From positions 12,648,001 through 12,712,000 of the forward strand of contig CM022665.1 of NCBI GenBank assembly GCA_012295275.1: 64,000 bases of DNA. The letters run 5' to 3'. Every line of letters starts with the position of its first letter. The first letter of the stretch is position 1. Under the pieces are notes generated by a model. The model did no database searches, was not told where the DNA came from, and worked only from the letters and a program-made list of their open reading frames with translations. Position numbers and translations under genes: made by a program. Shown piece after piece: positions 2,880-53,185 of this stretch. This DNA is from Chrysomallon squamiferum (taxonomy: Eukaryota; Animalia; Mollusca).

Positions 2880-2972
2880 GTATGTGTGAAAGTAGATCAA
2901 ATAAGTCAGTAAGACAGAAATGTGCAGTTTGTGTTCACTTGTCAAAACTAGCACTCACTGACGTCTTTTCAG

Positions 2973-2983
2973 GTTTCTCAATT
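2973..2983 (+). CDS. Candidate 11-nt microexon (RFSI)
   Basis: ctgacgtcttttcag|GTTTCTCAATT|gtaagt; 79+11=90 nt restores phase 0 for 4177. Confidence 0.55.
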
Positions 2984-3076: not shown

Positions 3077-3119
<43 letters not shown>

Positions 3120-4176: not shown

Positions 4177-4308
4177 AGCATGAACCCAAGTTCATTGCAG
4201 AATGTTCCTACAATGCTGCCCTCAGAGGGCCTCGTGGATGATGTCATTGTCATGGATGCCACTGCTGTTCAGAGTGTTGATGGGGAGCGCCTGGTTCTTC
4301 AGGAGAAG
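4177..4308 (+). CDS. Dynein exon, linker end
   Basis: tag|SMNPSSL...AVQSVDGERLVLQEK|gttggt. Confidence 0.85.
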
Positions 4309-7300
4309 GTTGGTTTAAAAATATCTTTCTTCTTGCCAACTTCAGTCACTTTAGTACACAATATGTCAACAGGTTGTTTTCATTTATCAATTTATATTCC
4401 AATCGGTGCTATAAAGCTATTTTATAAGATGTGTTAAATTAATGCCTGACTATGGGAAGGTGCTCATAAAATACTCCTTTCTGATAACTGGCAACAATAA
4501 TTTTCATTTCTTTTAATTTTTCTTAAATTTTTATTCCTAAGTGACATTATCAGTTAAATAATAATAAACTAAGATTTTATATTTTTTAGATTAATAAAAT
4601 TTTTCTTTATCAGTGCTGTTTTCTGTTGAATTAACAAGTTATAAGAACTAAATAATGTTCATCTCCTTCAGTTTATTTTCTTTTTATTTCTAAGTGCCTA
4701 TTTAAATTAATTTAAAACTTTCCATTGAATATAATGCACAAGTATCAAAATTGGAATTAGTGTACTCAGTTTTATTTTATCTATTATTTACAAATTATGT
4801 TCATTTACTGTTTGTTTCTAGGTAACTCTCGTTGATGGGGTGGAGGTTTGGTTGAGCAAATTAAGAGATTCTGTTGGCAAGACTCTTCATGACATGAATG
4901 TCAGTGTCATTCAGGACTGCATGAATGGAGTTCCAATGGAGGAATTTGCAGCAAAAGTAATTTTTTAATTTCATTTTAGTTTTTTATAGATTTATTATAT
5001 TTTATTTTTACTTTGTCAGAATAATTTTTTTATTTTTTATTTTTATTTTTATACATTATTCATATGCTTTTTTATTCAATTTAGTTTTAATTGTATCTAT
5101 TTTTATTTTATTTAAAAAAAATTATTTATATATCCAATGTTAATTGTATTTCAGTATCCAATACTCATTTTTATTTTAATAGATCAATTATGTTATTTGA
5201 TGTAATTTAATTTTAATTAAATTTTATTTACTTTACTTCACTTATTTTACTTTTATTTTTACTTATCTTCACTTTATTTTACTTCAGTTTACTTTACTTT
5301 ACTTTTCTTTATTTTATTTTATTGTTTTTTTTAAATATTTCGTCATTTATGTTATTATAATTTTATTTTAGTATCCTACACAAGTGTGCAGAATTGGAAT
5401 GCTCTTTAACTGGACAAAAGATTGTGAACTAGGAATCACTGATGTAAAGACTGATCGCAAAGCTCTACACATAACTCTGAGAAAACACATCTCTGCAACC
5501 AACAAAATCTGTTCCACTCTTACTCGTGGTGCTTGGAAAACTTTAGAAGACCCAATGTTGCCAATGCACAAAAACAGGCTGGAGTGTATGCTAACTGTAA
5601 GTTTTCACTAACATTTTCACTATATTTTGTTTCTTCTTTTATAATTTATAATTATTTTATTTATTGGATAAGATTCCTAATTATGTTGTGCTAGATTTAA
5701 AAATGAAATGTAAAATTATACTAAATAATGAATTAAAGATAATTTCATTTCATTATAATATATATATTATCATTGTTATTATTATTATTATAGGTTGGAT
5801 TTTTTGTTGGAATGTCAGTATTGATTTTATTGTAATTAAAAAAAAAATTGGATACAAAATTTTAAAATGTTCTTGTAAATTTTACACCTTTGTTTTAGTC
5901 TGAAATAGGAAATACATTTTTTTTTACTTTAAATGTGTTTCTTTATTTTCAGCAATCACTGTTTCTGAGAGACATTTTGGACAGCATTGTTACAAGAAAG
6001 CTGCGTGAAGTAACAGATTTTGAGTGGAGACGAAGCATTCGATGTTACTACCAGCCTGTTGGTTAGTTTTTTGATTGTCTTTAAGCAGTAACAAATTTAA
6101 ATATTATCTTGTGTAAAACTGATTTTTCCTCCATTAATTTGTGAGTCAAACCAGGTATATGTTTTTATTTTGGATCAAATTAGAGGTGGTAGATTTAGAA
6201 GCAGATTGAGGTGTTTCATTGAAAAGGCCTTTTGCTGGGATGGATAGAAAAGAGGTTTGATTATATAAAAATCAAAGACAATCAAGCAACAAAAAATACT
6301 TGAAGTGTGCTCTAGTTATATTCTTTGTAAATCTGAATAAAGTCTTTCCATTTTGTTTGTTGTTTTTTTTAAATACAGTATTGGAAACAACAACAAAAAG
6401 TAAAAAGCAGTACATGTATATTCTATTAATGTTTTTAATTTTTTTTTTTTTTTTATCTGTTATGCTTCCAGAAGAAGTATTGGAACCTGTGATTTGGATT
6501 CTGGACAATTCTTATGAGTATGGCAATGAATTCTATGGTTCCAATGTCGGTGCAGCAGTCACTTCAGTCTCTGAAAGATGTTTTCTCACAATGTCACAAG
6601 CTTTGGGTCAGTGTCAGGGCACCTGTTTCATTGGACCTTATGGTGCTGGAAAAACAGAAGTTGTCAAGGTAAAGATTTAAATTGTTGATGAGTCTGTATT
6701 TTCACACTATATTTAAACAGTCATTCCATATTATTTTCAGTTGTCTTTCATTTTATTTTTAATGGACTTTCCATTTTAATTAGCCTATATACCTACACCC
6801 ATTATGTTTAAAAAGTCACCCGTCTATTCCTGTGAACACTCTGTTTTTCTGTTTTTAAGCCTTTTTATCTGTATAAATATAGCTGCTGTCAGTTTGATGA
6901 TTTCTGTAATTATTTTTTAAAGACATTAATATCCCCAGAATTCTTTAAACAAATAAATTAAAAGAAAAAGCTTAAATTTTATGTTACTATAACACATTGC
7001 TGAGCCACCCCCTTTAAAATAGTAATTGCTCTATCTATGTAAATACTCCCCCACCCCTTCTAATACACCAGGATTAAATATTTATTGTCAGATACATTAT
7101 TATGATTTCTCTTTTAATTTGTTAACAGGGATTAGCCAACATTCTGGGAAATTTTCTTGGCATGTTCCAATGTTCCCCTTACTTCAGTCATCAGAGTATT
7201 GGAAAGATCATACAGGGAATGGCAATGGCAAGTATTAAATATCAGTTACATCCTGGTAATAGTTTAATTTTTTATTATTAATATATATTTCATTCTTAAA

Positions 7301-8526
7301 TTGTTAGCATGTTGATTAACATGAGCTGATTTTTGTTTAACTCAGAAATATTGAAGAGGGTATTTTATTTTTATTTTTTTATTTTATTTTTTTTTTTGCT
7401 GTTTAAATTTTCATTGAGATATTCTTGAAGACTGTTATTTATTATTTTAACTGAAAAAATAAACAAAACAGCTATGTAATTTTTCTTTCATTACTTCATC
7501 AAAAAAATAACAAATATAGATTATGTGTGTGTCTACATATGTACAGATGTCTATATGTGTTTATTTTTTATAACAAAATCAGTATTTTATATTGTTTATA
7601 GGATGGATGTTGGGGTTGTTTTGATGAATGTCACAATCTGAATAAAGAAGCTATGGCTGTCCTTCTGGATCACATACAAGCAATTCTTGGGGCTCTCAAA
7701 AACAAAATTGGATTCATGTCATTCTTGGATGGCCAAGAGGTGCAACAACTTTTGTTATCAATTTTATTTTATTTTATTTTAAAGACCTCAAAATTGTAAG
7801 ATATAAATGCAGAAAATATATTGTTCAGAGGTAAAGTTATTGAAAATTATCTAAACTCTAAACAAAAAAATAATTTAAATTTAAGGATATCTTTAAATGA
7901 TAGTGTTTTATCAGTTAGTCATTGTAAAGCTTATATTCTGTACTTTATAAATAAAAGAAATTTTAAAAATAAAACAAAAGGTCACTTCATATACCTTTTT
8001 TGGGAATGGATCACATTTTTTCTACCCTCTGTAATGTATGTATCATTTTTTTTATTTTTTTTCCACAAAAGATTCCAGTGCGAAAGTCAGTAGGCATGTT
8101 CATGACAGCAAATTCAGAACCAGTTTCTCCACTCTTCTCTTCTTCCATGCCCATCAATGTGCGTGAGTCATTCAGAGTGGTGACTGTGATGAAACCAGAC
8201 TTTCAGCAAATCTTGAAAGCAAAGTGTTCAGCATTTGGCTTCAGAGCTCCATCTGTTCTTTCAACAAGACTCAAAGTTTTAACAGAACTTGTCAAGGATC
8301 AACTGTTAGTGACATGAATTTGCTCTTACACCGAAAAATGTGTTGTCTATTGTTTTGTTTTTATTATTGTTGCTGTTTTATTATCTATTTGTTCGTTTGT
8401 TTTATTATTGTTGTTATTTTTTTATTGGGGGGGTTTGGTGGTGGTGTTGTATTAGCATATACAAATACATGAGGTTATAGATACTTTCTTTTCTTTATTT
8501 CATGTTTTGAATTTACAAAATAGAGC

Positions 8527-8562
<36 letters not shown>

Positions 8563-11500
8563 TAATTTGATAACAGTTGTGTCAAGTTGAACTGTAGGGA
8601 GAAAAACAAATTATAATTGTAGTCATCTCCCAACATTAATAATAAATAATATTAGTGGAATGGTCATAGAAATTAAGAATAACAAAAAATAAATAAATAA
8701 AATTAACAGAAGGCATGATTCTTGTAGTTTCTACTGACATTTCTGTATTTCAGACCCAAGTACTTTCATCACCACTTCACCATTTCTGCACTTGTTGGTA
8801 CTCTGAAGAGAGCAGCACAGAAGCGCAAGTTGATTCGAGAAGACAAATCAAGTGAAAAGGCTGATAAAAAGGAGGAAAGTTCACGTTCTGATAGCCAAGC
8901 ATCAGAAGCCACATCATCAAGACCAGCTATAGGTAAAATTTTACACATTCTTAACTGTTAATTTGGTTTGTTGACATTAAGTATACCAGTTAAAGCTTTG
9001 GACTGAAGTGTAACAGACAGCAGCATCAGTGCTTGTAAATCATTGAGTTTCTGGTTCTGCCATGACCCAATTAATGAGCTCCTGAATATTCATCTTCCAC
9101 ATAATATTGGGGATATGAATCCAGAAAGGCATGATGTACTTCTTTCATACAACAATAAAACAACTTCCCGATACAGTCTCAGAGGTTAATGAAGCCTTGG
9201 TTTGTTTTACATTCTTGTCCATGCTTCATAGCTGGTTTGCCAAAGAGAATGGTATATACTTTCATTTTTATTATAAATAGTGCATATAAAATCTTTCTTG
9301 TGTTTGATTCATAAAAGTGATGCCAAGAGATGGTAGCTGTGTACTATTCTCATAATTTTTCATAAGAAATACCATGTTGCTTTTGAAAGATTGGTGGCAA
9401 AAAAATGATATATAAAATTGTTTAAGGAAATTATGTTGAGATTAAATCAATAACTTGGTAATCTATAATTCTTCCTTACATTTTCTCATGAAAATTGATA
9501 TAATGACTCAAAAAGCAAAATAAAATAAGAGATATTTCTTTGTCAAATGATGTTTATGCAGGTAACTATAACTATAAATGTTTGCTATTGCATTATCATC
9601 ATCAGTAATTGTCTGTTAATCACAGTGAGTATTTGTTACCACTTTTCTCATTTTTTTTTCTTTTTTTTATTTCTGGGTTTTTTAAATATATGACAATTCC
9701 AAATTTTTTAGTTATAATATTTAGAAGCAGATTTTATTAAAGAAAAAGAAAAATTTATTTATATATATATATATATCTATCTCTGTATTATTTCTGGATA
9801 TTTTGTACATCGCATGTCTTAATTTCAGTATGATGATCCATGGTCAGTCACTTATATTGAGATATATCATATTAATAATACAAACTTTTAAAAAATGTGG
9901 ACAAGGCTTTTTGTTTTTCTTTTCTTTTCTTTTCTTTTTTATTTGCAAATAACTGTATTTTCTTCACTTTTTTATCCTACTTTCTTTTTTCTTTTTCATT
10001 ATTTTTCTTTATTTATTTATTTTTTATTTTTATTTTTATTTTTTTTGTTTTTTGCCCCTCCTTTTTTTGTTAATATAAATAGAAAGACGTTTCAGTTTCT
10101 TACATCCAGACTGCAAACACAAGAAGCGCAAAGGTAACTTTTCATCAAGTTCTGTTTAAGTAAGACTGTCATAGGTAAGAAATTCTGTCCAAGACAAGAT
10201 GAAAGCCATCTGAAGCTTGAAAGTTAAAAGTATATAGAAAAAAATAGAGGTAAAAACTAAACAATAATTTGCTGCCTAACAGTGAACTGGCATCAAAAGC
10301 AAAAACTTTGTTCACTATTAAAGATTAACAAATAAAATATTTCAAAATAAATAAAATAAGAAGTGAAAAATTTGTAAATTAAATTTACAAAAAAGAAAAA
10401 AAAAATGTTTTATATCTTCTCTTGGTCTAATTTGTTTATTTACAGCAAAATGTTTCAAAATTATTATTTGGATATTTCTGTTAACAAAAAACACAAAAAA
10501 CTTAAAAGCAGCCTTACTTTAATATTGTTTACTGGTTATTTTTTGAATTATTTAAATGTTTATTTACTTTGTTTATGTTGTAAATAATTAAATTTTATTA
10601 TGAAGAAGATACTTCTAGGTTTTTTTTTTTTTTTTATTTAATTTGTTTTTAATTTGTGGAAGCATTTATTGTTTCATAAATATATTGAATGTTTCATTCA
10701 ACTTTCTTCATTTTAAATTTATTTTACACACAAATTTATATAAAATTTGAACTATTTCTGTGCTCTCCACATTGTTTCTTTATTATTTCTTCATTCTTTT
10801 CACTTTTTTTTTCTCACTTTTTTCAGTTTTTTTTTTTTTTTTTTTTTTTTCTCTTTTTTATAATAAATAATTTATTCAGTATCAGCATTTCAAAATATCC
10901 AAGACAAACAGTTACTTTCTTGATTGGAAATCTTTAAAACATTGCTTGTTCTGGCTTTTTACACCATGATTTTCATATATTAATCACACCAAATGGTCAT
11001 TAAAACAAAGCAAATAATCTTTTATTCCTAAATATAATTTAATCTTATGCTTTGTTTTTACTAAATTAATCAGGTTATATTTATTAGTGCACATAAGTTT
11101 GTTTACTCTAACAAATAACTGCACTAATTATTTCCATTTTTGCATTTTACATGTGTCCCTGTTGACCTTACAAACATGGCTGTGTAGTCCTGATTTGAAT
11201 GTTTTCAAAGATTTCTGTATCCTTAAATAGGAAAAAAAAATCAACAGTCTTGTGTCATTGATGACATTGAGTAACTTCTATGCTTTGTTTAATCTAATAG
11301 CTTGAAGATGTTATTGTTATTTCACACTGATTTTGATTGTCAGTCATATTTATTATCTGTTAGTTTATTGTGTTGTTTTTTGTTGTGTTAGGGATTATTA
11401 TTATTGTTACCTGTTAATTTTATAATGTATCATATTGACATTAATGTTTATTATTGTTGTTGTTGTTACTTTTATTGTAATTATTATTAGTGTCATCATT

Positions 11501-12992: not shown

Positions 12993-13023
<31 letters not shown>

Positions 13024-13992
13024 AGCAAATTTTTATTTCTTCTTTTTCTTCCTTAACATCCTCATCCTCATCATCCTCATTATTATTAATAATATTAAAC
13101 ATTATGTTATCAGGAATAATAGTTGCTGGTCCACCAGGAAGTGGTAAAACATCAGTCATTGAGACTCTGGTTGAGTCACTGTGTACCTGCCCTCGAGGAA
13201 TGTCTCGCAGTTCTATGTCCAGCAAAACATCAACACAACCCGAAGTCATTCACAAACTGCTGAAAATTAATCCATTGGTTGTGGACAGTTCTGACTTGAT
13301 GTTTGGATACCTGAATCAGAATCATGACTGGGTTGATGGCATTTTCACTACAGCATGCAGGAAAGCAAACAGGGTATATATGATTATAAACTGACAGCAT
13401 AAGAAATTCTTCTCTTATTTATTATTATTATTATTATTATTTTTTTTGTACAAACATTGTTATTTCCATATTTATGTTTGACTAAAGTATTAATTTGTGC
13501 AAATATAAACAGTTAAATTTAAAACATATTAAAAATAATAAACCGTTAAATTGTTTTTAAAATGCATTTAATAATTGTTTATGTCAGTGTCGACTTATTT
13601 TTATGTCTCTGCCTGATATGTTTATATCTATATTTATGTCTATATGTCTGATGTGTTCACATCTGTGTCTAATATTTACCTGCCTGATATGTTTGTATCC
13701 GTATGTGATATTTTTATATATGTCTCTGAAATGTTTGATATGTGATACATTTGAATCTGTTCTGATATTTTTATATCTCTCTAATATGTTTATAATAATT
13801 CTGAAATATTTTTTTCAGTGTCTAATATATTAGCATCTGATGTGTTTAAAACAGAATGTTAAACATTATTAATGAGTGGTATTATGTATCTATGTTTCTG
13901 TGTATTTGTAATCTGCTTTTGTAAATTTGTGCCTGTCTTTATCTGAATGTGCATTTATATATGAATATATTTATGTACATTTCTTTATATAT

Positions 13993-14035
<43 letters not shown>

Positions 14036-15727
14036 ATACAATAATTTATTTACATTATTTTTCAGAATATCAGTGTTACCTGGCTTTGTCTTGATGGTCC
14101 ACTAAATGCTGGATGGGCAGATAATTTTAACAGTATTCTGTCTGGAGACAAAGTGAGTTATCTTTCTTTTCAAACTAGAGGCAGCTTTCCTTGAATTGTA
14201 TTAATTTTTGTATAGTACCATTTAACAATAACCTAAATTACATATGCTTGTAAAATATATATATTTGATAGATAAATTGTGTCTTTTCCAATTCTTTTAA
14301 ACCAAATAGGAAGTCTGAGTTCTGAATGAATAATTAGTTATTTTCAATATTCAGTAAAGATAAAATGTTTTTTAAAAACATGACATCAATCATGATAAAG
14401 AACAGAACAATTAAGGAATCCATTAATATAAATAGTTTTGAAAATTCATTGTATTATAACATGTTTTTGGGTGGGTTTTTTTTGTTGTTTGTTTGTTTGT
14501 TTTGTCATAAATTGTTTGTGGTGAAATAACTTCCTGTAAAATATTTGATAAATTTTTAAAAATATTTTTATTAGACACTTCATCTGAAGAACGGAGACAA
14601 GCTGTTTTTATCTGATAACATTATTTTGCTGTTTGAAACTGACAGTCTTATTTCGGCTTCTCCTGCCACAGTTGCCAGATCTGTAAGTCATTTTTGGTCA
14701 AAAATATTGGTTTGATATATTGTTGTTTTATTGCAAACAGTAATATTAATATTTATGTTAGTTTTGATCATTTATTATTATTATTGTTATGACAATTTAT
14801 TAAATTATTATTATTGTTGTTGTTGTAAATATATTTTTAAAAGTTTATTTACCAAACATTAAGCATAGTATTGTTATTTTAATTTAATTTAATTTTATAT
14901 TATTTTATTTTATTATTATTATTTTTTTTTAAAAAGGGAATTTTGTATTTGGATCAAGATGTTGTTGGTTGGAAACCTATAGCAAAAGCTTGGCTGGAAA
15001 ACCGTACTCAGCAAGAAGTGCATGTAAGTTTTAAATATTTAAATTTTTACTTCTAATATTTCAATTTGAATTACAAAATACATTTATAATTATTTTGGTA
15101 ACTTTTTCATTAAAAAGAAAGATAATATTATCATAAATTTGTAATGAAGTTTTTCCCACCAGTTTTTGTATATTTTTTATTAATATTTTATTTTACTATT
15201 CAGAATTGTGAAAATTTATATGTTGATTTAAAAAGTATTCTAATTAGAAGATTATATATACCAGTATATTTCACTTTTTTCATTTTTATTTATTTATTTT
15301 TTTTTTTCAAAAGAAATGTAATTTTATTGCTGCACATGTCTGAAAAATTAACAACCTGCCACAGCACTTTATTATTAACAAACACTTAAATTAACGCTTA
15401 ACAAAATATTCTTATTGTTTCAGTAACATTACTCTTCCAGCTGGTTATTAATACATTATTATTATTTTTTTCATTTTGTATATTATCTATAATTCATTAA
15501 CAATATAACTGTTTACATATCATCTTGCACAGTGTTCTAACTAAAACCAAAATTAATGTAAGTAAATTGGTATAGTAATACATGGTGTATGTAATTTTTG
15601 TTAAAATTTTATGAACCAGATAATTTGTCAAACATAAATTTCAGATAGTTTGGTCTCTGACTGTCAAATGAAATAATAACATTTTTGATATTCTGAAATT
15701 GCATTAATGTCACTGTTTATTTTACTA

Positions 15728-15764
<37 letters not shown>

Positions 15765-16691: not shown

Positions 16692-16727
<36 letters not shown>

Positions 16728-19700: not shown

Positions 19701-19867
19701 TTATGAATAATGCAATCTTAACATAAATCTTATTAAAGTGAAAGAAGGAAAAATATTAAATTATCAGTTGTGAATTCTGAGAATATATTATATTTAATAT
19801 TTATTAATATACAAAAATGATTTTTGAAAATTATAATAAATTCTCTATAATTTTTATTATGATTATT

Positions 19868-19903
<36 letters not shown>

Positions 19904-22123
19904 TTCAATTATTCCATTTATTTTGTTGGGTTGGCAACTAAGTTCCCGCCATTTTTTTAATTTAATAGATTTAAACAAAATGGCAGGAACTTAGCTGCCA
20001 ACCCAATATTTTATGTTTGTTTTTTTTATTTATATATTTCTTAATTTAATTTAATTTTATTTCTTATTTTTGTATGTGTGTTATTCAAACAAAATTGTAC
20101 AAACAAAATTGAATTATTAACTAACTTTTTATTTTTTATTTTTTTAAATATGTTTTCAGAGTTCCAGAGACCTTGGTTTCAGACAAACAAGATATGCTTG
20201 GTGAAGTATTCATTGACACAATGGACACTGTAAGTTCTATTTGATACCATCTATAATAATAATAATAATAGCAGTAACAATAATAATAATAACTAAATAA
20301 ATAATAATAGTAAATAATAGTAAATAAATAAAATAATAATATGACAAAACCAAAAATGGAATTAACAAAAGAAAAAACACAGAAAAAAAGAAGATAAAAA
20401 GAAAGAGCATAGGAATTATAATAATGATTATTATTATCTAATGTAAGATTTGTTGATTTCCGAGCTGTGTTATCGTTCAGAAATATAAATTTTCACGTCT
20501 GTTCTTACATATGTTTGTGCAAAAAGACTTATGCGGAATACAATTTAAAAAAATTTCAGATCCGCACAAGAATTTTAATGGAGTTTGCTGCTGCTTCTGG
20601 ACAGAATGTTCTGCTTGTTGGGCCTCATGGTTCAGGAAAGACTTCACTCATCAATGACTTCATTGACAGCCAAGGTTTGCAGTATATGATTACAACTGTA
20701 TATGATTTTTTCAAAATATTTTTTGTCCTATGATATAAAAATCAGTTACTATTAATCTCTTAGTGACAAAGATTAAATGTTATAATTTGTGAGGGTTTTC
20801 ATCATACAAACAGCAAATATCATGCAAATATAATCATCATTTTGTTGATATCTATTATTTTTGTTATGATTAATACTACTGTTACTGTTACTGTTACTAC
20901 TACTACTACTACTATTATTATTATTAATGTTTCTTATTTTATTTTTACAGATGCCCAGCTGTCTGTCTGTAAAAGACTTGTGTTCTCTGGAGCTTCCACA
21001 GCTAAACAACTCCAGCAGTTCATTGAGTCCAACATATACCACAGACAAGGTAAAACCAACTTAATCTTAATAGCACTAACAAAAAATAGTCACTGAATTC
21101 AACATAAATCACAGACAAGATAAAATTTACTTCATCTGAAGAGCAGTAACAAAAAATAGTCATTTAGTCCAACGTATACGAGAGACAAGATAAATCCTAC
21201 TTAATTTGAATAGCACTAACAAAAAATAGTCGCCGAGTCCATCATATATCACAGACAAGATAAAAATTATTTCATCTAAATAGCAGTAATGCATAATTTT
21301 TGTCCTATTAAATAAAATGACTACAGGACATTGAGTAATTTTCCAACATCTGCAGCTGCATGTAAAAGTTTGTTTAAACATATATTCCATCTCATTTTTT
21401 TAGGAAACTAAATATGCATTAAATTCTTTTTCTTATTTAGGATTTGTGTATGGAGCAAAAGAAAACAAAAAATTGAAGGTGTTTATCGATGATGTCAACT
21501 TGCCAAAACCAGATGTTTATGGAGTACAAACATCTAATGAGGTAAAAGCCTTATTATTCAAATACATTTTATATGATTAAATAAGATAGGTTTTAGTTAT
21601 TATTGTTAACTTAGATTTTGAATTTTGTATTGAATCTCAATAAAAGTATGCAAATAAGATATAAAATGTATTTTGTGAAAGCGTCATAGATCAACATCTG
21701 TATTTCTCTGAGAGTAAATGCATTAAATGTATTTCATTATTATTATTATTATTGTTATTGTTACTTTTTTATTATTATTTTTATTATAATTATCTATTAT
21801 TATTAATCATTATTAAATATTATTATTATTACTTTTATTAGTATTATCATTATTACTTTTAATATTATTTGTTTTATTATTTTTTATTTTTTAAACTAAA
21901 TTTTTTTTTTTTTTTTGTAGTTGCTCAGACAGTTGTTGGATGATCAGGTATTGTGCACTCTACAAAAGCCTTTTGAATGGAAAACTATTGAAGGACTGAC
22001 AGTGATATCTGCACTGGCCCTCAGTGATTACCCTGGAGTGAAAAATCAACGCATATCAGAAAGGCTTTTGGTCAGTTTTAATATTAATTTATATTGTTAT
22101 TGTTATTACTATTATTATTATTG

Positions 22124-22164
<41 letters not shown>

Positions 22165-22612: not shown

Positions 22613-22685
<73 letters not shown>

Positions 22686-27223: not shown

Positions 27224-27285
<62 letters not shown>

Positions 27286-30064: not shown

Positions 30065-30096
<32 letters not shown>

Positions 30097-33000
30097 CATT
30101 ATTTAAATGACAGATTAAAAGGCAATGGCAGAGTTTTGTTATTTTGAGGTTTTCTCTTCTTTTTCTATGATTTTGTTTTTGTTCATTTAAGTATGTTGTT
30201 TTTATAATCTGGATTTTTTTTTTTTTTAATAGTTTTAAATTATATTTTAATTTAATATTTTTAATTATTATTTTAAATTATATTTTAGTTAATTATTTTT
30301 AATATTAATTTAAATTATATTTTAATATATTATTTTAAATTATTATTTTAAACTGTATTTTAATTAATCATTTTTAATCATATTTATTATTCTGTTCTAT
30401 AAGGTATTTAATTATTTGTTTTTTTTTCTAAATAATTTTTTTTTTCATCATCTTTGATTTTTAATTTTTAAATAATTTTCCTTCTTTCTTTAATAAATAT
30501 TATTTTATTTTGTTTGTTTTGTTTTTTAAGTAAAAAAAAGAAAACATTACTTTAGACCAGCCATATTATATTCATATTCATATATCTTACAGAAAAGTCA
30601 TTGCAACACTTGACCAAACAAGAATTGATGCTAGAGCAATGAAGAAGGCTATAAAACAGATGACTGAAAGGTTTGAGGATTCCAAGACAATGACAGCCAA
30701 TTTGCTCTACCAGTTGTCGCAGAAGGCAACAGTGCTGGAAAAGTTAAAGGCAAAGATTGGGTTGAGCACCTCCTTGTATGCCTATCTCAATCTGAACGAA
30801 ATAGAAACCAATGAAGAAGAAGGTGATGAACTTCTTAAGGAAGGTATGTAGAAATATTTTTGAGTTACTTTAATAAGTATATGCAAAAAGATATGAAGCA
30901 TTTTAATAGTATTATTACAGTTGTTAATGATATTATATTTTGTTATTATATTTAGTAGTAGTAGGAGTAATATTAGTACTACTGCTTTATATTTTTTGTC
31001 AGTTTATTTATTTATTTTTAATTATCACTCCATACAGTGCATTTAAACATTTATAGATAGTATAACAGAAATTCCAGATAACAATATTTTGATGATTGTT
31101 TTCGCAGAGGAGTATGATGACTATGATGTTGAATTTGACAAAATGCGAGAAGCCACATTGAAAACAAGACAGGTACAAGCCAAAGAAGAACATGCCCAGG
31201 CACTCAAACAGCTTGAACAGTGTCGACAAAACCTGGAACATGGAAGACAGCAGGTTAGTATTCATTTTAGCAAATTTTCTAATATCAAATCATACAGCAG
31301 CTTGGAAATTAAATGTGTCATGGCTTTGTATTTCTCCATTAGATATTTGGCAGAGGTGGAATTAATTTAGGTTTTATTTAAATGATTTAACTCTTTTTGA
31401 TGTTAACAGAACGTTCAGTCATGTTTTATGGGATTTTTAAAACTATTATTAGAAATTAATTGCATTTTAGATTGCATAATGTTAATGAATCAATTTTTTA
31501 AGACTTCATATGAGTATAATTAGTATGAAATATATCAAATTTATCTTAAAAACTATTATAATGGATATAAAATGAACATGTTGTGAATAGAATTGGTATT
31601 CAATGATTTATTATGGTATAATTAGGACACTTCAAAAAAAAAAAAAAAGGGTTTTAATTTCTTTGACATTATTTAACCCCACCAATAAAAAAACAAATGA
31701 CAACAACAACAAATAATTCAGGTAATACTTTAAAAAACAGTATAAAATATATTAAACTTATGTTAAAAACAATTTTAATGGATACAAAAAATGAGCATTT
31801 TGTGAATAGAATTGTTTTCAGTTCAGCGATTTATTATGGTATTATTTGGACACTTTATAAAAATATTGTTAATATTTTGTAACATTATTTAGCCTATATC
31901 TCTAGCTAATTATTAAAAAATATATATATATATTTCAGGTAATTCACTGGAAGAGTAAGGTAGACAGACAGTGTATTGAGAGACTGAAAGCTTTTTCAAA
32001 CCCACCTCAGCTGGTGGGTCAGGTAATGGAGATGGTGATGACATTGATTGGTAAACGTCTGCCATCTCAGAGGATCCAGGAAGTCCAGATCCACTCACCT
32101 CACAAAGATGACATGTCTAGCAGAATGTCTTCTAGTTCCAGCAGCATCAAATATGTTGTCAAAAAACGTAAGTTTCACTGTTAAGTTAGTAAGACATCAT
32201 TACTGGTTGTTTCCATCAGAAAAATGCATTCATTTTCTGTGTATTTATCATTTTCACCTATAGATTCAAGTAACGGAAAGTTGTGATATCAAGTATGTTG
32301 GTAAGAAACATAGGTTTGATTATCAAGTTAGTTATAGGTAATTTTTTATTTATTTTTATTTTTATTTTATTTTTTTTCTCTTTTTCCAAAAGAAAAATGA
32401 TTAAATCATATCTTTAGCGTATTTATCATTTTACACTTATGGATTCAAGTGAAAGAAATTAATTTATAACATCAAGTATCTTGCTAAAACACAAGTTTGA
32501 CATTCAGATTATAGATCCTTATTTATGTGTTGTTTTAGAAAAGAACAAAGAACAGTCAGAAAGGTTTGATAAAACACAGTGGAAACAGATGCAGCTGACA
32601 ATGTCAGACTCAGCCAAGTTTGTGGACATGTTGCACAATGTATCATGGGAGGATGGCTTGCCAGAAGATGTTCTTACAGGTTTGCAAGAATTAATTTAAC
32701 AATTTTAAATTCTAGTTATAAAATAATTGTATAATGCTGACACAATTTATTATTATCTAGACTAAGGTGGTTTGTGAAACATTACATCTTGTCAAATGTT
32801 TTTTTTAATGTCTTAAGCTATAGAAAAGTGTTCATAGAATAATTTCAACCATACCAATTTATCATAATTCTGAATAAAATTGAAAATAAATGCATTTTAA
32901 TCCTTGTGTATTGTTTGAAACATAGATTGTTTTAAATTGAAAGATTAACTTTTAAATTATTGCATAAGCTATTTGTAATCAAAACCTAAGCATGCATACA

Positions 33001-34109
33001 TATATGTACATATATTTAATTTAATTTTTTAAACATATACATCTTGTGTTTAGTTATATTTCTATATTATAACAAGTGGAGTTTTGTATTTAAAAATTGA
33101 TTCATATTTTCACAGTATTTTTCCAAAAGAAGCTTTAGAATTATCTGGGGTTTTTAAATTTTTATTTTTTTTATAATTACTATCAATGAGTTATAAACTA
33201 TTTAAATTTTGTAATGTATTTTAGCTGTGGAGAGTTATCTGTGTGTTGGTAAAGATGGTCAACTTGGGGTCACAGGAGAAGGATCTCTTCTTGATAATGC
33301 TGCAGGTTTGTAGTGATGTTTTCCATCATGTATTTTCAAAAAACTATTTTACTATACAGTTCTGGAATATGTTTCTTTGTTTAGTTATCTAAATGTATGT
33401 TCATGTTTATTATGTGTGCATCTGTTTGTCTGAATATTTGCCTGTCTTTAAAATTATTTACAACTGGAAAAGTGTTCAAATTGAAATGTAGATAATCGAA
33501 ACTGTCTTCTTTTTTTTTTCTCTTTTTTTCTCCCCATCCTAACTAAAATAAAATTAAATAAATAAATAAATACTAAAAGTTACAGATTAAAACATATATC
33601 TGTATTTTTGTAATTCAGAAAAATTGTGGTTAGCATTAAAACTAAACTTCAGTTTAAAAAATCGTACTTGACCATCTAAATCTTTTATCTGAAACTCATT
33701 TTTATATCAATAAAACATTACAAGAATCCTAAAACAAAATCTATAACATCATTTGAAAATTTTTTAAACAGAAAAATCTTGGTCTGCAGTAAAGAGAACT
33801 CCATCGCCAGATAACAGTAAAGGCATTTCAATAGCAGCAGCTAAATTTTCCAGTGAGGACTGTGCACTTCTTGTACAATACACAATAGCCATTGTTGAGT
33901 ACTCATGGCTCTGTGGGCCTCTCAAAGCAGCCATGGAAAGACTCAGTGAGCTAGAGAGAGAAATTGAAGAAAATGAACGTTTACAAAGATTACAGGAGGA
34001 AGAGGTATTGACTTTTATTTAACTGTTTTTTTGTTTATTTTTTTTTAAATATATTTTTATATATGTGTTGATTGATATTATTATTCTGGTCTATTTATAT
34101 TTTATTTTA

Positions 34110-34168
<59 letters not shown>

Positions 34169-34353
34169 GTTAATATTATTATTATTATTTTTATTTTTTT
34201 TTATTTTTTATTTTTTTAAGAAATTAAATCTCTACTTGTGTGCACTTCTGTAAATTATAAATTTTCAAACAATAAGTGATATAAAAAAATTAATAATCTT
34301 TAAAAAAATCCATAATATATATATATTTTTTTTATCCAGAAAATTGCATTTAC

Positions 34354-34384
<31 letters not shown>

Positions 34385-35685
34385 GAATGGTTAAAAAAAT
34401 ATAGATTTCACAACAGATGCAGTTATGGGACATATTTTGGTTGTTTCCATTAAAAATATTAATAAATCTGCCTTCTGGGATATTTATAATTACAAACTTA
34501 AATAATCAAGTGAAAAAACATTTATTTACTAATACAACTGTCATTTTGGGAGCTTTATTAATCTTTACAAAAATAATTTCTTTAATAATCTTCTTCAAAT
34601 TTATATCATTTTTAAATTTACAATTAAGGGTTTCAGGGATACATAATGCAAAAAGCTTCATTTACTTCATGGTAATGGCTCATACTTATTTTGCTTTATC
34701 TACAACATATTTTTCTTTCTTTTATTTCTTTTTAATCAATTTATATTTACTTAATAATATCAATACATTATGTTAGTCTACTGTAAAGAGTTAAAAAAAC
34801 AAAAATCTATTTTTTATTTTAGTTATTTACATAAAATATTGAAATTTGTTATTACTGGTTTTTTGGTGGAGTTTTAATAAATTGTTATTATTAATATTAT
34901 AAAAAGCACAATATTAAAGAAATATATATTTCTGTAAAAGACTGACTTTTTACACTTTTTAATAAGAAATTATTATTATTATTATTGTGTTTTCATCACC
35001 ACTAACATTGCATGAATTATTTTTTTTTATATGATTTCTTACTTAGGCGTTACTAAGAGCACAGGTAACACACTATGATATACTAACCACTCACTAATAT
35101 TTTTATTTGTTTGTATTGTTTTATTAGCTTTTCCAAAACAATACATCTTTATTTACTTCCTTTATAGTAAAATTATATTGTTTTTGAATCTTAGGGTAGA
35201 CTTCTTTTTGTATTTTATTTTAATTTTTGATTTCTTAAATTTAAAAAAAGAAATTGAAAAGAGAAATGTAATTTGATTTTACATTATCATAAGTATTATA
35301 ACTGGTGAATTTTAATAGAATATTGATATTTGGGGCAGACACTTATTCAGAGTTAACGTAATAAAACTGAAGTACTATCAGTGGTCAAAATGAGTTAAAC
35401 ATCTTCACTATAAATATACCAAATCAGAAAGATTGTTTATCTCAAATAATGTTCCCAAACTGACCCCCTCAGTGTTGAGCTAATTTCATATTAAACTAAA
35501 TGGCTCAGCAACATTTTTTTTAACCCCACACATTCTTATTCTTATCCTATATATATATATATATATAAAATTTAAAATAGATATTAACTTTTGTATTTGT
35601 ATTTTTGTGGAAGATAAGAAATTTCATTAGATTTCTGACATATCTGTGGCCCTGTATATCCAAAATGCATGTGACCATTTTAATT

Positions 35686-35733
<48 letters not shown>

Positions 35734-38700
35734 ATTGTTCTATTTCATATTTAAGTTTGTAAGTACCAAAGATATAAATGAAAGGTAAAAAAAAAAATAA
35801 TAAAATAAAAAATGGTTACATGCATTTGTACATATGAAATTTCTTATCTTCCACAAAAATACAAATACAAAATTTAATATCTATTTTAAAATTTTTGTTT
35901 TTTTTTAGATTAGAAATTAAACAGTTTAATCAAACTTTTATTCAGATAACTTATAAATATTTTACTTTTTAAAATATGAATTTCTGAAAAGAATATTTAT
36001 TTTTAGATCATTTATTCAGGGTGCTGTTTAAATAAAATAAAAAACTAATTAAATTTTGCTTATTGCTTTAAATTTCCATCATAAATTGAACTCACATCCT
36101 TTGGGGAAAAAAAAAAAAAAAATTATTTATATATATATAACCTGAATTTTATTTAGTTGAATTAAATGAAGAGTTATCAAAATTAATCCATAAATATTTC
36201 ATTTGTAATTATTTTTGGAAGTTTTGAAAGCACTTGTAGGTATAGGTAAGTTTAATAATTATAAAACAAATGCCAGTCATTAGAATGAAGTTCTTGTTAA
36301 AGCACTGGTTCAGAAGAAAAATATAATTTCATTTCATTTCTTCATTTATTTATTGTATTGTTTTAATTTTTTTCTTCTTCTCTTTTTCATATTAATTTTG
36401 TACTCAGGTGATTCATTTAATTAAAAAATCCCAGTTCTCATGATTTGAGCTTCATAATAAAATTCTGCTGTTGATTTTTGTTTTGGCTTAATTGGCTCAC
36501 AGTGCTTTCTAAAATGAGATTTTTTCCAAGTTAGCTGAAAAAATATGTAATAATTACATAACACAATGATCAGTCATGTAGTGAGAGTGCCCATAATGAC
36601 TCATAGAGGTTTTAATTTAATTCTTATAAGCCAAAACAGTTCTTTTTTAATATCTGGAAAAAAGTAATCAGCATTTACTTCATACTTTCAACTTCATAAC
36701 ATTATAAACGGACATAATAACTAAATTTTATAAAAATTAAAAATTAAAAAATAAGAAGGAAAAGTATTAAAATGAAAATTGTTAATAAATTAAAGCCAGA
36801 ATAATTTTATTTAACATTCAAATATAAAAAGAGAATAAAACATTGAGGTAATTTATTAAAATATTTTTAAAATAGTGTTTAAATATCTGAAACTATATTG
36901 TTTTCAGTTTCACTTGCTTGTAATTTTTCAAAAAACCTTTCAAATTGTTTTTAGAGATCAGTCAACAATAAACAATTCAGATGGAAATACAATATTAAGA
37001 ATTCATTTAGAAATGGTTTGAAAATAAATAAATAAATAAACAAATAGTAATAATAAATTTTAAAAAGTTACTTATATTTTACTGTGGTTAGTATATTTTG
37101 AAGCATTGCTATATGTTCAAAAAATCTGACTGAAACATAACAGAAATAATTAAATATGATATTCCAACTTGCTTTAAATAAATAAATGAAATAAAGTCTG
37201 TGACTGAACATAGCAGCTCCATGTTGTTGTTTTTTAAGTGTCTTACTCACAATAAGTTTGCAGTAATTTGCATGGAACAATAAAATGTTGAAAAAGCTTA
37301 TTTTAAATTGTCAGTAATTCATAACATGAAATGTCTTTTGTGTATAAACACTCACATTTATGTTGTGTGTGTAAACAAGTAACAGTGATGACTATACAGC
37401 CATTTATAATAGAAATTAACCTATTTTAACATTTAATTTAAACATTTTAATGAATTACTGTGTAAATGAAATAGAAATCATTTTTAAATCAAAATATTTC
37501 TGAAATACAAACAGATTTATTCTACAAAATATTAAAATATGTATGATTATACTTTAAAATATTAAAATATTTACAAAAATACTTTGAACTGTTTAATCAC
37601 ATATAACTACTGTTATTAATAAAATAACTCTTTTTAGTTTAAGTAGTTTCTTTCAAGTATTTTTAGTTATGATCTAATTTTTTGTATAGAAATATATAAT
37701 TTCATACAGCTCTGTTATATTCATTTTAACATCAGTTAATGTTTCTGGTTTCATTGAATCATTTTTCTTGTTCTTGGTTTTGTTTCATTCAGTTGTATTT
37801 TAATTGTTATTTACTTTAATGCTATCAGAGAAGGCAACAACAACTTAAAAAGGTGTGTACTAACAAAGAATAAACTAGAAGGAGAATAGATTTTTGTTTT
37901 GTCTTCATAGATTAGTGCAATTTGTATTTTTCAAATGATTTTTGATCACATAGATATTTTAATTTTAAAGAAATTTGCAGTTACTGGTTCAAAAATGGTT
38001 AAGATATTAAGGTGTAATTTAGAATATGAAGATAAATATATATCAAAAGCTGGTGTTTGTAAAATTATGTGAAACCTTTTTATTTTTAATTTCTCTTTAA
38101 AAAGTTACCTGTAATCTTTAAAAATCTGTTATTAATATACTTACTTTAAAAGAAATAAATAAAAGAAGATAAAATTTGTGGAACATTTTTATTAGATAAA
38201 ATATGTTCAATAAGATTTTTTTTTTTTTAAAACCCACTACATTAGACAGATAATGTTTTATTTTATAATATTTATATTTCATAAAAGTGTATATTGTTAT
38301 GTTATTTTTTATGCGTCTAATTTGGTATGTAATTTATATCAAAATTTAGTTTTTCTCACTTTGTAAAGTTAAACTTCTGAGTCATAGAGAGGTAGAAAGA
38401 GTGAGAGAGAAAGAAAGCAAAGATTTAATGTATGTGTAAAGGTGTGTGTTTCATAGTGTTAAGAATTGTGATGAAATAAAACTAATGGTTCAAGTATACA
38501 GAATATTTATTAGGGAATTATAGAAAAAAATAAAACAGAAAATAAAATGAAAAATATAATTTGGTTCAAAATTAATCTCTAGCCTGAAGAAGAACACAGA
38601 GAGTTAAGTCCAGAACCTGAGGATGATCTTTCAGAAGCAGATCTGGCCAATGTCCAGGAAGAAGTGAACGTCCTCCAGCAGCAGTTTGACCAGGCTGTGG

Positions 38701-41700
38701 TAGAAAAACATTCTCTGGAGATGGAACTCCAGTCAATGAATGAACGTCTCAAAGCAGCAACTGAAATCATTGAAAGGTTGGTGATTCTGGACCATATTTT
38801 AGACTTACTGAAACCCAAAGATATATGAAAATATCGAGATCTTATTTGGCAACAATTAATTAAGCTGTGTTTCAGCTGAAATTAAAATTTGAGAAGCCCA
38901 TTTAGATAGCTAAACCAGATGTAATGTTGTTTTTTTGTTGTTTTTTTTAATATTTAAATCTGTGGCCATATTATATTGATGCAGTTTCTTCATAAACTAT
39001 TACTAAAGTAGTATCAATGCATTAAAACTCAAATGCTTATTCTTAATATTGTTTTGAAAACATTACTCCATTTATTATTTTAATTAAATATTAACAAAAT
39101 AATTTATTTAATAATTTTGAACAGACTTGACAAACAGTATCTAAAATTTCCTCTGATGAAGTATTTCTATAATCAATAAAATAAAATAAACATATATAGT
39201 AGTATATGAATGAAATAATAATAAAACAAGTAACAGATCATTTATCTAGCTTCCAGAAAACTGGTCTTAAAAATCTATTAATTTGAATCAGTTAAATACA
39301 ATTTCATTTTTTCACTTTTCATTGTTTATTTTATCATTCATGCATCTTGGTTCAGAAAACCATAAAATCCTGAAATGTGGGTCATTTTCAGTTTCAGTCT
39401 TACAGGATAAATGGTCTGGTACTGTATTAAAAATGTGTCTACAGAGGAGAATCAGATCCATTAGAAATATTACTGTATTAGTAATCCATTTTTAAAGGGT
39501 TTAGTTCACAACAAGAATTATCATTTGTCAGATTAATCATAAGAATATGAATATGTTTGCATATATATAAATTCTCAAACAATAAAGCTTTTTGACGATT
39601 TATTAGTTTAATTTTATTCCTCCGTTTTTTAATATTATTATTACATGCAGTATGAAGACACAGGAACGTGGTTGGCGGCAGTATGTGAAAGACAATGACT
39701 GCAACGAATTGTTGTTGAGTAACTGCATTGTGGCATCAGCCTTCCTCGTGTATTGTGCTGCTGTTGATATTGATACGAGAACACGAATGGGAGAGTTCTT
39801 CATGAATGTTTGTGAACATCACACCCTGCCACTTCATCAGAAACTGCTGTTTAGAAATATGGAGTTGATTGAATTTCTTTCTTCTCCAGTAAGAAGCAGA
39901 GAATTCTTTTAAGATGATCAAATACTGACTAGCAATAAATTAATTTTAATAAAATAAAGGCCCTTCTTTTTTGTAATATTATATATATTAAACATTTTAT
40001 TTCTGCAAATTTTAAATTTTCGATTATGTTCCAGAATTAGATTTTAAAATATATAATAAAGTTCAAATACAAATTAACATTTTATGTTAACAAATTTTAT
40101 AAAATGGATCAGATGCTAGTATTAGATTTTAAGGCATCGTTTGGAAAATATATATTAAAGTTGAGATGTGAAAATCTAATTTTATGTTTGCAAAGATTAC
40201 ATTTTGGATTAGATTCAAGCTTAAAGTTATAGTTCTTGTGTGTGTGTTTTACAAATATGTTGAACAGTTTCATCAAATGTTACAATTATTTGCTTTAAAT
40301 GTTTTGAAAAGGTTTTAATTCCATTTTACCTGTTACTGATGATGTTACAAAATAATTACTTATTTCTTTGATTATATTATTTATTTGCAATTATATACAA
40401 ATATTAAATTTTTACTTACAACCTTTTTTTCCCCCCTCACTTATTTATTTTTAGCATAACTAAACTGTATAACTGACAAGTTTTATATCACCTTTAATAT
40501 CGAAAAACTAGTAAAAAAAATATCATACTATTTTCTTACAACTTTAAAAAAATGTATTATTCAGCTGGATGTGATGAGACTTGATCTTCAAAATCTACCA
40601 ACAACACAGCTGATGTTGGAGAATGCTGCCTTCCTCATGCAAGAGGAGAGTATTACTGCTTGGCCACTTATCTGTGACCCAACATCCAGGGTTCTTGACT
40701 GGCTGAGATGCTATTTCAAAGACAAGGGACTTGTTGAAACCAAATACCATGTGAGCTGAGTTCATTTGTTCATTTAAAATATGTTTGTGATTATTAAAGT
40801 AACTCAGTTTTTAAGAGTGTGTTTTTCTGAATGTATGAAATGGAAAGAAAAAGGCAAGAAATTGTTATGTTGCTAACGAATGGTCTTTTTATTATTAATT
40901 TTTATTTTTAATTTATTTATTTTTTAGTAGTTTTTGCCATTTAAGACTGTCAGTGACAGAAAATGAATATACTTTTCCTTTTGTTGTTATGGATTTTATT
41001 GTTCTTAGCATAATGTTGCTTGTTATTGTTTGTTTGGGTATTTTATTTATATATTTATGTATTTATTTAATTATATATTTATTATTATTATTATTATTTT
41101 TGTTTTTAAAGTAATATAAATAATGAAATATTTCCAGTTTTAATGTAAATATTATCACTGTTGTTTTAAAATCTCTGCTTGCTGTTTTCTTTATGCATAT
41201 TAGGAAGTATTTTTTCGTAATGGGTAAATTGTTATATTAGGAAATGAGATCTCAACTTGAAAACTGTCTGGCTGATGGTACAGCACTGCTTGTCACAGAC
41301 TGTGATATAATGGAGCTGGTGAACGACAAAAGATTCAGAGACACAATACGTTCCAGCTACAGATTCATTGGTGGCAAGTCTCATTTCAAAGTAATTGTAA
41401 GTATCAGTTAAATATTTTACTGTTTTACAGTTTTTTATTAGATCTATGGACTTAAAACAAACCATAGGTTCATTGGTGGAAAGTCTTATTTCAAAGTAAT
41501 AGTGAGTATCAATTAAATATCTCACTTTTTTAAACATTTTTGTTTAGGAGTATACAATGATCTACAGAATCACTGGCAAATTTCATCTCAAAGTAATAGA
41601 AAGTATCAACAAGTATTTTACTTTTTAAGCACTTATTATTTGATTTTGTGAGAACAGAACAAGGTAAAAATGTATTGGTGGTAAATTTCATTTCAATGTA

Positions 41701-50700: not shown

Positions 50701-51145
50701 TTGATTGTTTTGTTTCTTCCTCTCTTGTTGTTTTATTTTGGGATGATTTTTGTTTTTATTTTATTCATTTTAAATTTAATTTTTTTAATTTTAATGTCTT
50801 TGTTTTTTTCTTATTTTGGATTTGTTCTTTTTGTAAAATGCATAGTCTTCAGATATTTTTTTTTTTTTTTTTTACCTTATTGATAAATGTATGTGTAGAT
50901 GGCATATCACTTGTAGGTTTTTGTAAACTGATTCTTCTTTGTCTTTTACTGAAACTGTCTAACAAATATCTGAATTGTGGTTTAATTCATGTACAATTTT
51001 AGTAATATTATTCAAGTACTAGTTTTACTTTTATTTCACTTTTGTTTATAATAATAACAACAACAACAACAATACAAATTATTATTTTTTAAAAAGCATT
51101 ACAAAATACAGTGACCATGGATTCAAATGAAATTTTTTGGTTTTT

Positions 51146-51176
<31 letters not shown>

Positions 51177-51193
51177 GTTGTTATGTTTTGGGC

Positions 51194-51245
<52 letters not shown>

Positions 51246-53185: not shown

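What the first reader, a model, noticed from the sequence alone, without database searches (positions are those of the whole stretch)
4177..53185. Intact but heavily remodelled dynein heavy chain: candidate orphan-class or pseudo-motor dynein
Seen: the frame is intact over 61 exons, so this is not a pseudogene, yet normally near-invariant dynein motifs have changed. GPAGTGKTET reads GPYGAGKTEV, FDEFNR reads FDECHN, TMNPGYAGRTELP reads TANSEPVSPLFSSSMP and HYDFGLR reads HHHFTIS; AAA4 nucleotide motifs are gone; stalk and MTBD carry large insertions. Known: conventional cytoplasmic and axonemal dyneins keep these AAA1 motifs almost invariant, and DNHD1 is a known degenerate heavy chain. Inference: this may belong to a poorly characterised divergent animal dynein class acting as a scaffold, brake or regulated microtubule tether rather than a normal motor.
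Basis: partly seen in the sequence, partly recalled or inferred. Interest (0 to 1): 0.78.

Follow-up and report, generated by a model that had tools for sequence, protein, structure and literature searches.

The report
Mollusc non-motile dynein (DNAHX) gene
This is an intact, spliced and expressed gene, likely from a mollusc, for DNAHX, an already described family of dynein heavy chains with a degenerate main ATP site that likely act as brakes or carriers for other ciliary dyneins rather than as motors, and it may also be read from an internal start that would give a tail-less form.

Summary
61 exons (4177-53185) splice into 3,268 open codons, and every motif change quoted is present. RNA contigs support all 9 introns tested. 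The class is not new. The protein is 62-66% identical to mollusc and 50% to sea-urchin orthologues. The S. purpuratus orthologue carries 3 of 4 marker residues of DNAHX (Chai et al. 2025 preprint) at exact spacing. The window protein has the DNAHX insertions (AAA4S +49 aa, stalk +133 aa) and nests in that clade, sister to DNAH5/8. DNAHX is probably Kollmar's 2016 class-12 (inferred). The scan already found an octopus DNAHX elsewhere. 4177 is a splice acceptor, not the gene start; about 2,000 tail and linker residues are absent from the window. Two additions go beyond the preprint. (1) Within the family AAA1 is relaxed, but the microtubule-binding helices and a loop motif are conserved, so the stalk tip likely still binds something. 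(2) One RNA run splices a CpG-rich exon with no tail homology (ending 2983) onto 4177, and no RNA contig shown reaches tail exons. This hints at a tail-less isoform, which is unproven.

The parts
4177..53185 (+). DNAHX-type dynein heavy chain, 61 coding exons, 3,268 codons from the end of the linker through AAA1-6, stalk/MTBD and C-terminal domain to the TAA stop. The start is a splice acceptor.
   Evidence: RNA
2772..2983 (+). Upstream exon spliced (GT donor after 2983) onto 4177 in RNA run X3. No homology to dynein tails, CpG-rich, in-frame ATGs at 2852 and 2882, in-frame stop at 2799-2801. Candidate alternative first exon. The left end is inferred from the 212-nt loose end; only its last 30 letters were seen.
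6633..6662 (+). AAA1 Walker A, GPYGAGKTEV (GKT kept; canonical Thr at position 5 replaced)
7620..7637 (+). AAA1 Walker B, FDECHN (catalytic DE kept here; kept in only 5 of 13 family members with sequence there)
8105..8152 (+). AAA1 sensor-I loop (Asn kept, PGY loop replaced)
8767..8787 (+). AAA1 sensor II, HHHFTIS (Arg replaced by Ser)
10083..10133 (+). 51-nt in-frame cassette exon inside the AAA1S insertion; included in X3, skipped in X1 and X2
13128..13151 (+). AAA2 Walker A, intact
14659..14682 (+). AAA2 arginine finger serving AAA1 (SPATVARS); Arg kept here and in 9 of 15 family members
20620..20643 (+). AAA3 Walker A, intact GxxGxGKT; the Walker B is DD as in the axonemal dyneins aligned
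25676..25702 (+). AAA4 Walker A, degenerate (GAVGSHLET)
27723..29932 (+). AAA4 small-domain insertion (the preprint's PS2i), about 50 aa over exons 33-34, absent from DNAH5/8
30044..39804 (+). Stalk and MTBD with acidic CC1 insertion (30762-31166), pre-H3 insertion (32059-32567), H5 insertion (33242-33821) and CC2 insertion (33972-38639)
   Evidence: proxy model
33266..33292 (+). Conserved motif GVTGEGSLL inside the MTBD H5 insertion

Best explanation
The window holds an intact, expressed orthologue of DNAHX, a DNAH5/8-derived dynein heavy chain that likely binds ATP at AAA1 without cycling and so likely acts as a non-motile partner that holds other ciliary dyneins in an inhibited, transportable state. 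Shown here: the intact frame, splicing, orthology, motif losses and insertions. Shown by others in sea urchin only: ATP retained in AAA1, no post-powerstroke particles, the AAA4S insertion contacting the C-terminal cap, and phi-particle heterodimers. Inferred for this gene: (1) AAA1 binds nucleotide (GKT kept in 14 of 14 family members with sequence there) but turns over little or nothing; (2) the AAA4S insertion locks the ring in the pre-powerstroke state; (3) the full-length chain pairs with another heavy chain during cilium or flagellum assembly. Odds: DNAHX identity about 0.95; non-motile about 0.9; phi-template carrier as the main role about 0.55.
For: Identity over the whole region: Aplysia 66%, Potamilus 65%, Diadema 51%, S. 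purpuratus 50%, fish and frog 37-42%, against at most 29% for any of 22 other dyneins. Marker test: the preprint's DNAHX residues V2221, S2322, T2324, K2393 correspond at the same spacing to V1056, N1157, T1159, K1228 in S. purpuratus P0014 (3 of 4) and 2 of 4 in Diadema P0013. The DNAH5 control gives T, P, Y, R (4 of 4 of the DNAH8 pattern). FastTree: the window protein lies in a clade of 15 with support 1.0 and a 1.32 stem, sister to DNAH5/8 (1.0); its own branch (0.22) matches Potamilus (0.23). All five described insertions are present. Sensor-II Arg in 0 of 15, Walker B DE in 5 of 13, arginine finger in 9 of 15 members. Mollusc-vertebrate identity in the AAA1 core is 0.39 in DNAHX against 0.85 in canonical DNAH8, the largest drop of any domain. 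Expression.
Against: The type sequence XP_041462850 was not retrieved, so the link runs through residue spacing in two other urchins. This copy keeps Walker B DE, the sensor-I Asn and the arginine finger, so residual hydrolysis is not excluded. The MTBD core is not relaxed (0.53 against 0.71 in canonical DNAH8, a ratio like other domains), which sits badly with lost binding. The tail needed for dimerisation was not seen in the window, or in the RNA contig pieces shown. The carrier role is only a model in an unreviewed preprint.
Confidence: 0.8

Rival explanations
1. Same gene, different job: a static microtubule tether or brake. The locked ring presents a still-functional MTBD that grips the doublet (for example at outer-arm positions, as Kollmar suggested for class-12/13) or a partner, and damps sliding.
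For: MTBD H6 is the most conserved segment in the family (59% near-invariant columns against 15% for AAA1). H1, H3 and H6 are the high-affinity binding helices (passage in PMC13191692). All six MTBD helices are predicted in a bivalve proxy model, whose best 22 listed fold matches are dynein-containing structures. G[VI]TGEGSLL occurs in 15 of 15 members and 0 of 22 other dyneins. The preprint purified DNAHX from axonemes.
Against: The MTBD core is only 22% identical to DNAH8, and Pfam MT is missing from 18 of 18 members against present in 42 of 42 other hits. Conservation may reflect folding or a protein partner. The motif is absent in Argonauta, Sycon and two unnamed relatives. The MTBD figures rest on about 108 columns.
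Confidence: 0.3
2. A slow but active motor: this lineage keeps enough of AAA1 to hydrolyse ATP and move.
For: GKT, DE, the sensor-I Asn and the arginine finger are all kept in this copy.
Against: Sea-urchin DNAHX keeps the same four and still held unhydrolysed ATP with no post-powerstroke class. The sensor-II Arg and PGY loop are lost, the AAA4S lock is present, and the catalytic residues vary freely across the family.
Confidence: 0.07
3. A DNHD1 (class-11) or class-13 orphan dynein.
For: Also degenerate animal heavy chains; neither was available for my trees.
Against: The preprint says DNHD1 lacks the Walker B catalytic residues and has its insertions at other sites. Class-13 has a class-4-like tail, a longer AAA5 and a C-terminal extension. 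Here the orthologue tails hit the DNAH5/8 clade first in 5 of 5 tests, the AAA5 Pfam span is 225 against 220 aa, and the protein ends at the same point as its orthologues.
Confidence: 0.03
4. A decaying duplicate of DNAH5/8.
For: Loss of near-invariant motifs; the 5' part is not in the window.
Against: 3,268 open codons, spliced RNA, no branch acceleration, and orthologues from sponge to amphibian sharing the changes.
Confidence: 0.01

Closest known systems
DNAHX / dynein-X (Chai, Loustaunau, Zheng, Yang, Zhang; bioRxiv 10.1101/2025.01.18.633724; type XP_041462850, Lytechinus variegatus)
   Same: [quoted passage not shown]
   Different: Walker A position 5 is Ala and sensor II is Ser (Val and Lys in the urchin). 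The preprint calls the MTBD insertions non-conserved, but I find a conserved motif in the H5 insertion and well-conserved MTBD helices. The preprint does not describe a cassette exon or an internal first exon.
Kollmar 2016 class-12 dynein (DHC12; PMC5100056)
   Same: Tail most like class-3 (DNAH5/8), highly unusual stalk, present in sea urchin and absent in human.
   Different: No class-12 sequence could be fetched, so the synonymy is inferred. Kollmar saw no coiled coil or typical binding site, whereas the proxy model shows long stalk helices and six MTBD helices.
DNAH5/DNAH8 outer-arm heavy chains
   Same: Nearest canonical relatives; same domain order; automatic annotations call the orthologues DNAH5/8-like.
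   Different: At most 29% identity; canonical AAA1 and AAA4 motifs are intact in them and they lack the insertions. Biomphalaria has both a canonical DNAH8 and a DNAHX.
DNHD1 (class-11)
   Same: Degenerate orphan heavy chain, proposed functional analogue.
   Different: Per the preprint, separate origin, other insertion sites and no catalytic Walker B; not compared directly here.

Membership tests
DNAHX | Distinct clade branching from the outer-arm DNAH5/8 lineage | tested here: met
   (FastTree local support 1.0; no DNHD1, dynein-1, dynein-2 or class-13 included; no topology test)
DNAHX | Reciprocal best hit to XP_041462850 | tested here: inconclusive
   Type sequence not retrieved; proxy by marker spacing, 3 of 4 in S. 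purpuratus and 2 of 4 in Diadema, which are 50-51% identical to the window protein
DNAHX | [quoted passage not shown] | tested here: met
DNAHX | AAA4S (PS2i) insertion | tested here: met
   +49 aa against DNAH5/8; 53-residue segment 100% gapped in 5 DNAH5/8-clade rows
DNAHX | CC1, CC2, pre-H3 and H5 insertions in stalk and MTBD | tested here: met
   stalk 479 against 346 aa; loops with pLDDT below 50 in the proxy model
DNAHX | Unusual length (about 5,300 aa) | tested here: inconclusive
   The tail lies outside the window or is not used; orthologues are 5,303 and 5,325 aa
DNAHX | ATP-trapped, pre-powerstroke state; phi heterodimer | not testable with these tools
   Shown only for sea urchin
Kollmar class-12 | Tail related to class-3 (DNAH5/8) | tested here: met
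   Tails of 5 of 5 orthologues score best against the DNAH5/8 clade; the window's own tail is absent
Kollmar class-12 | Aberrant stalk without typical MT-binding signature | tested here: met
   PF12777 in 0 of 18 members and 42 of 42 other hits; sub-threshold 22.7 bits in P0014
Kollmar class-12 | Grouping with annotated DHC12 sequences | not testable with these tools
   No sequences in the supplement passages read
Kollmar class-13 | Class-4-like tail, long AAA5, low-complexity C-terminal extension | tested here: not met
Canonical DNAH5/8 | Invariant AAA1 motifs, AAA4 P-loop, 346-aa stalk | tested here: not met
DNHD1 | Orthology to human DNHD1 | not tested
   No DNHD1 sequence obtained; only the preprint's description

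The most novel reading that the evidence does not exclude
This animal transcribes DNAHX from an internal CpG-rich promoter. The product is a tail-less chain of about 3,300 aa (ring, stalk and MTBD, without the dimerisation tail or most of the linker). It would be a free, locked dynein head that clamps microtubules or caps a partner motor through its conserved MTBD and H5 loop motif. Support: X3 splices a non-homologous exon onto 4177. All 15 AG sites that would make that exon an open internal exon score below all 61 real acceptors. Its CpG o/e is 0.65 against 0.22 in the coding sequence. The 9,921-nt X2 contig starts inside exon 1, and no RNA contig piece shown reaches a tail exon. A Potamilus gene model of 3,274 aa starts in the same exon.
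Probability: 0.25. Interest if true: 0.62.

Novelty: new member of a known kind. Interest (0 to 1): 0.3.

Why it matters
As a gene it is ordinary for its family: one more mollusc DNAHX. Its use is as a test of a one-species preprint. It confirms that the AAA1 decay and insertions are family-wide. It links DNAHX to Kollmar's earlier class-12 by inference. It challenges the claim that the stalk tip has no conserved role, since the MTBD helices and a loop motif are conserved from molluscs to amphibians. If the tail-less transcript is real and translated, it would be a natural stand-alone pseudo-motor dynein head, directly testable by 5' RACE and a binding assay.

Tried and rejected
No whole genome is held, so the upstream tail exons could not be sought. 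tblastn of 8 orthologue N-terminal parts against 1-4176 gave no credible exon (best E 0.14). A scan for extra homologous exons in all 60 introns gave only weak, inconsistent candidates in 4 introns, which I rejected; it also missed the real 10083 cassette, so further non-conserved cassettes may exist. The upstream-exon ORF has no database or Pfam match, which is weak evidence. The C-terminal exon matched no close solved structure (best E 1e-11, Tetrahymena outer-arm chain). Rfam found 0 matches. No RFX X-box matched my recalled pattern; one CRE-like hexamer at 2959 (2 in the window) is not taken as evidence. Three stalk exons gave no Pfam MT hit. dN/dS could not be computed for lack of orthologous coding DNA. 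Absence of RNA cover upstream of exon 1 is not proof, because contigs break at branches and 98 loose ends and 158 pieces were not shown. The upstream exon as an internal cassette of the long form is disfavoured but not excluded: the best in-frame acceptor scores 0.7 against a minimum of 1.1, orthologues vary in length at this very site, and an out-of-frame acceptor at 2719 scores 4.1. The fold of the stalk is a proxy (Solemya, 20-row alignment, pTM 0.43), so its overall shape was not used. Complex prediction was not run. Literature: 'DNAHX' returned one work; a five-term search for an alternative-promoter short isoform returned 0; the preprint has 0 occurrences of 'Kollmar' or 'class-12'. The preprint's supplementary files were not seen, and its ortholog list and figures could bear on the conservation claims.

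Full report
The observation. The window is 25% G+C eukaryotic DNA. tblastn with nine orthologues gave 62 clusters, one of them a spurious intronic hit. Choosing splice sites by frame and homology gave 61 exons, 9,807 nt, 3,268 codons and a TAA stop at 53185, with no internal stop, 59 GT and 1 GC donors and 61 AG acceptors. Coding GC is 0.37-0.52 by codon position against 0.22 in introns. Position 4177 is an acceptor and corresponds to residue ~2018 of a 5,325-aa bivalve orthologue. The window therefore lacks the tail and most of the linker. No genome was held in which to look for them.

Expression. Four RNA runs of one study hold 0.25-0.27 of the words of 42000-48700. My arithmetic from the exon table gives 0.27 for exon-only content. 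Laid on 4100-10250, contigs of X1-X3 join exons at the predicted sites for 9 of 9 introns tested, including the GC-AG intron. X2's contig is 9,921 nt, which fits the model plus 146 nt of 3' UTR. X3 includes a 51-nt in-frame cassette exon (10083-10133) that X1 and X2 skip. The tissue is unknown.

What it is. One exon found five proteins at 64-77% identity in bivalve, snails and a hemichordate. A longer query found 18 members at 36-70% identity and then a drop to 20-26% for 42 other dyneins. A full-library search added amphioxus, caecilian, bichir, flatworm, Argonauta, a sponge and unnamed relatives; 10 of 148 new hits passed my DNAHX-likeness filter. Over its whole length the window protein is 62-66% identical to molluscs, 50-51% to sea urchins, 44% to a tunicate, 37-42% to fish and frog, and at most 29% to other dyneins. 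In a 37-sequence, 2,574-column FastTree it lies inside a clade with support 1.0 and a 1.32 stem, sister to DNAH5/8 (1.0). It is next to heterobranch gastropods (0.985), on a branch as short as the bivalve's. A second tree (41 sequences; five rows dropped, nine added) gave the same placement, with Argonauta, Sycon and two unnamed proteins as long basal branches where attraction artefacts are possible. Neither tree held DNHD1, dynein-1, dynein-2 or class-13, and no topology test was run.

The link to DNAHX. I read parts 1-5 of 6 of the preprint 10.1101/2025.01.18.633724 (not its reference part, figures or supplementary files). It defines DNAHX by a branch off the DNAH5/8 lineage, a length of 5,272 aa, insertions in AAA4S, CC1, CC2, pre-H3 and H5, and AAA1 changes V2221, S2322, T2324 and K2393. 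I could not fetch the type sequence. S. purpuratus P0014 has V, N, T, K at exactly that spacing, Diadema has V, N, S, K, and a DNAH5 control has T, P, Y, R as the paper gives for DNAH8. The window protein has all five insertions. Kollmar 2016 (PMC5100056; sections 9, 10 and 14, passages, and supplement passages) described class-12 as having a class-3-like tail and an extremely unusual stalk. Tails of 5 of 5 orthologues hit the DNAH5/8 clade first, and Pfam MT is missing from 18 of 18 members. DNAHX is therefore probably class-12. This is my inference; the preprint's text does not mention that work.

How it likely works. Across 15 members, Walker A GKT is kept in 14 of 14 with sequence there, Walker B DE in 5 of 13, the arginine finger in 9 of 15 and the sensor-II Arg in 0 of 15 (the urchin alignment at sensor II is ambiguous). 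Mollusc-vertebrate identity in the AAA1 core is 0.39 in DNAHX against 0.85 in canonical DNAH8, while AAA2 is 0.48 against 0.61. That is the pattern expected of a site kept for binding, not catalysis, and it agrees with the ATP-trapped urchin structure. The best reading is a locked, non-motile chain that pairs with and inhibits another dynein. The carrier role is the preprint's model and is untested. Against complete inactivity, this copy keeps DE, the sensor-I Asn and the arginine finger, as the urchin does.

Where my results depart from the preprint. It concludes that the MTBD insertions serve no conserved role and that binding is likely lost. In my nine-member panel, MTBD H6 is the most conserved segment (59% near-invariant columns). 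The MTBD core is 0.53 identical across mollusc and vertebrate against 0.71 in DNAH8, so it shows no special relaxation. The H5 insertion carries G[VI]TGEGSLL in 15 of 15 members and 0 of 22 other dyneins. Near-variants occur in amphioxus and Solemya, and the motif is absent in Argonauta, Sycon and two unnamed proteins. The pre-H3 and CC2 insertions are indeed unconserved (0 near-invariant columns). A proxy model of the Solemya stalk (mean pLDDT 74.5, pTM 0.43) keeps six MTBD helices and places the motif in a mostly low-confidence loop. Its listed fold matches are dynein-containing structures. H1, H3 and H6 are the high-affinity helices (one passage of PMC13191692). The tip likely still binds a microtubule or a partner, although it is only 22% identical to DNAH8.

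The upstream exon. In X3 the 212 letters before 4177 end in 30 letters that match 2954-2983, followed by a GTAAGT donor. This exon has no homology to orthologue tails, no database match, in-frame ATGs at 2852 and 2882 and an in-frame stop before them. Its CpG o/e is 0.65 against 0.22 for the coding sequence, though one of 29 larger coding exons reaches 0.77. All 15 acceptors that would keep it open score below all 61 real acceptors. X2's contig begins at 4209, and an X1 contig runs into the upstream intron. A Potamilus model starts in the same exon, but other split models break elsewhere. This is compatible with an internal promoter and a tail-less isoform. However, it rests on one contig from one study, only 30 of the 212 letters were seen, and this site is a variable insertion in orthologues. 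I give the translated tail-less protein 0.25. A five-term literature search for such an isoform returned nothing.

Verdict. The preprint already modelled gastropod members, and this scan earlier noted an octopus copy (seen after my reading was formed). Interest is 0.3, carried by the conserved stalk tip and the possible short isoform.

Noticed in passing
window 61530-63576, - strand: 3' end of a convergent neighbouring gene. The exon at 63358-63576 matches Pfam WLS-like_TM (PF06664, E 6e-15), with probable further exons near 62958-63038 and 61530-61636. It looks TMEM181-like (name recalled, not tested).
   Followed up: partly
P0007, P0009, P0011, P0002, P0003, P0022, P0094, P0100: DNAHX orthologues occur in heterobranch and land snails, Argonauta, a caecilian and Eleutherodactylus coqui. 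From recall these fertilise internally, which conflicts with the preprint's link between DNAHX and external fertilisation.
   Followed up: no
P0097 and P0136 (unnamed ENA proteins): Two unnamed dyneins with degenerate AAA1 group at the base of, or inside, the DNAHX clade with support 1.0. They may be the non-animal relatives Kollmar mentioned; long-branch attraction is possible and the organisms are unknown.
   Followed up: partly
window 7228-7601: A GC-AG intron between the Walker A and Walker B exons, supported by RNA joints in X1-X3.
   Followed up: yes
window 10083-10133: The cassette exon adds 17 mostly basic residues to the AAA1S insertion in one of three RNA runs; function unknown.
   Followed up: partly
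window 20620-20643: The AAA3 P-loop is closer to the GxxGxGKT consensus in all 15 DNAHX members than in DNAH5/8 (which read TAKT). AAA3 may be a conserved nucleotide site in this family.
   Followed up: no
window 30762-31166: The CC1 insertion is strongly acidic (16 D/E against 4 K/R in 47 residues), and a strict pattern from it matches 13 of 15 members. It could be a binding or autoinhibitory surface.
   Followed up: partly
window 8859: RNA run X3 reads A for G inside exon 9, probably an allele.
   Followed up: no
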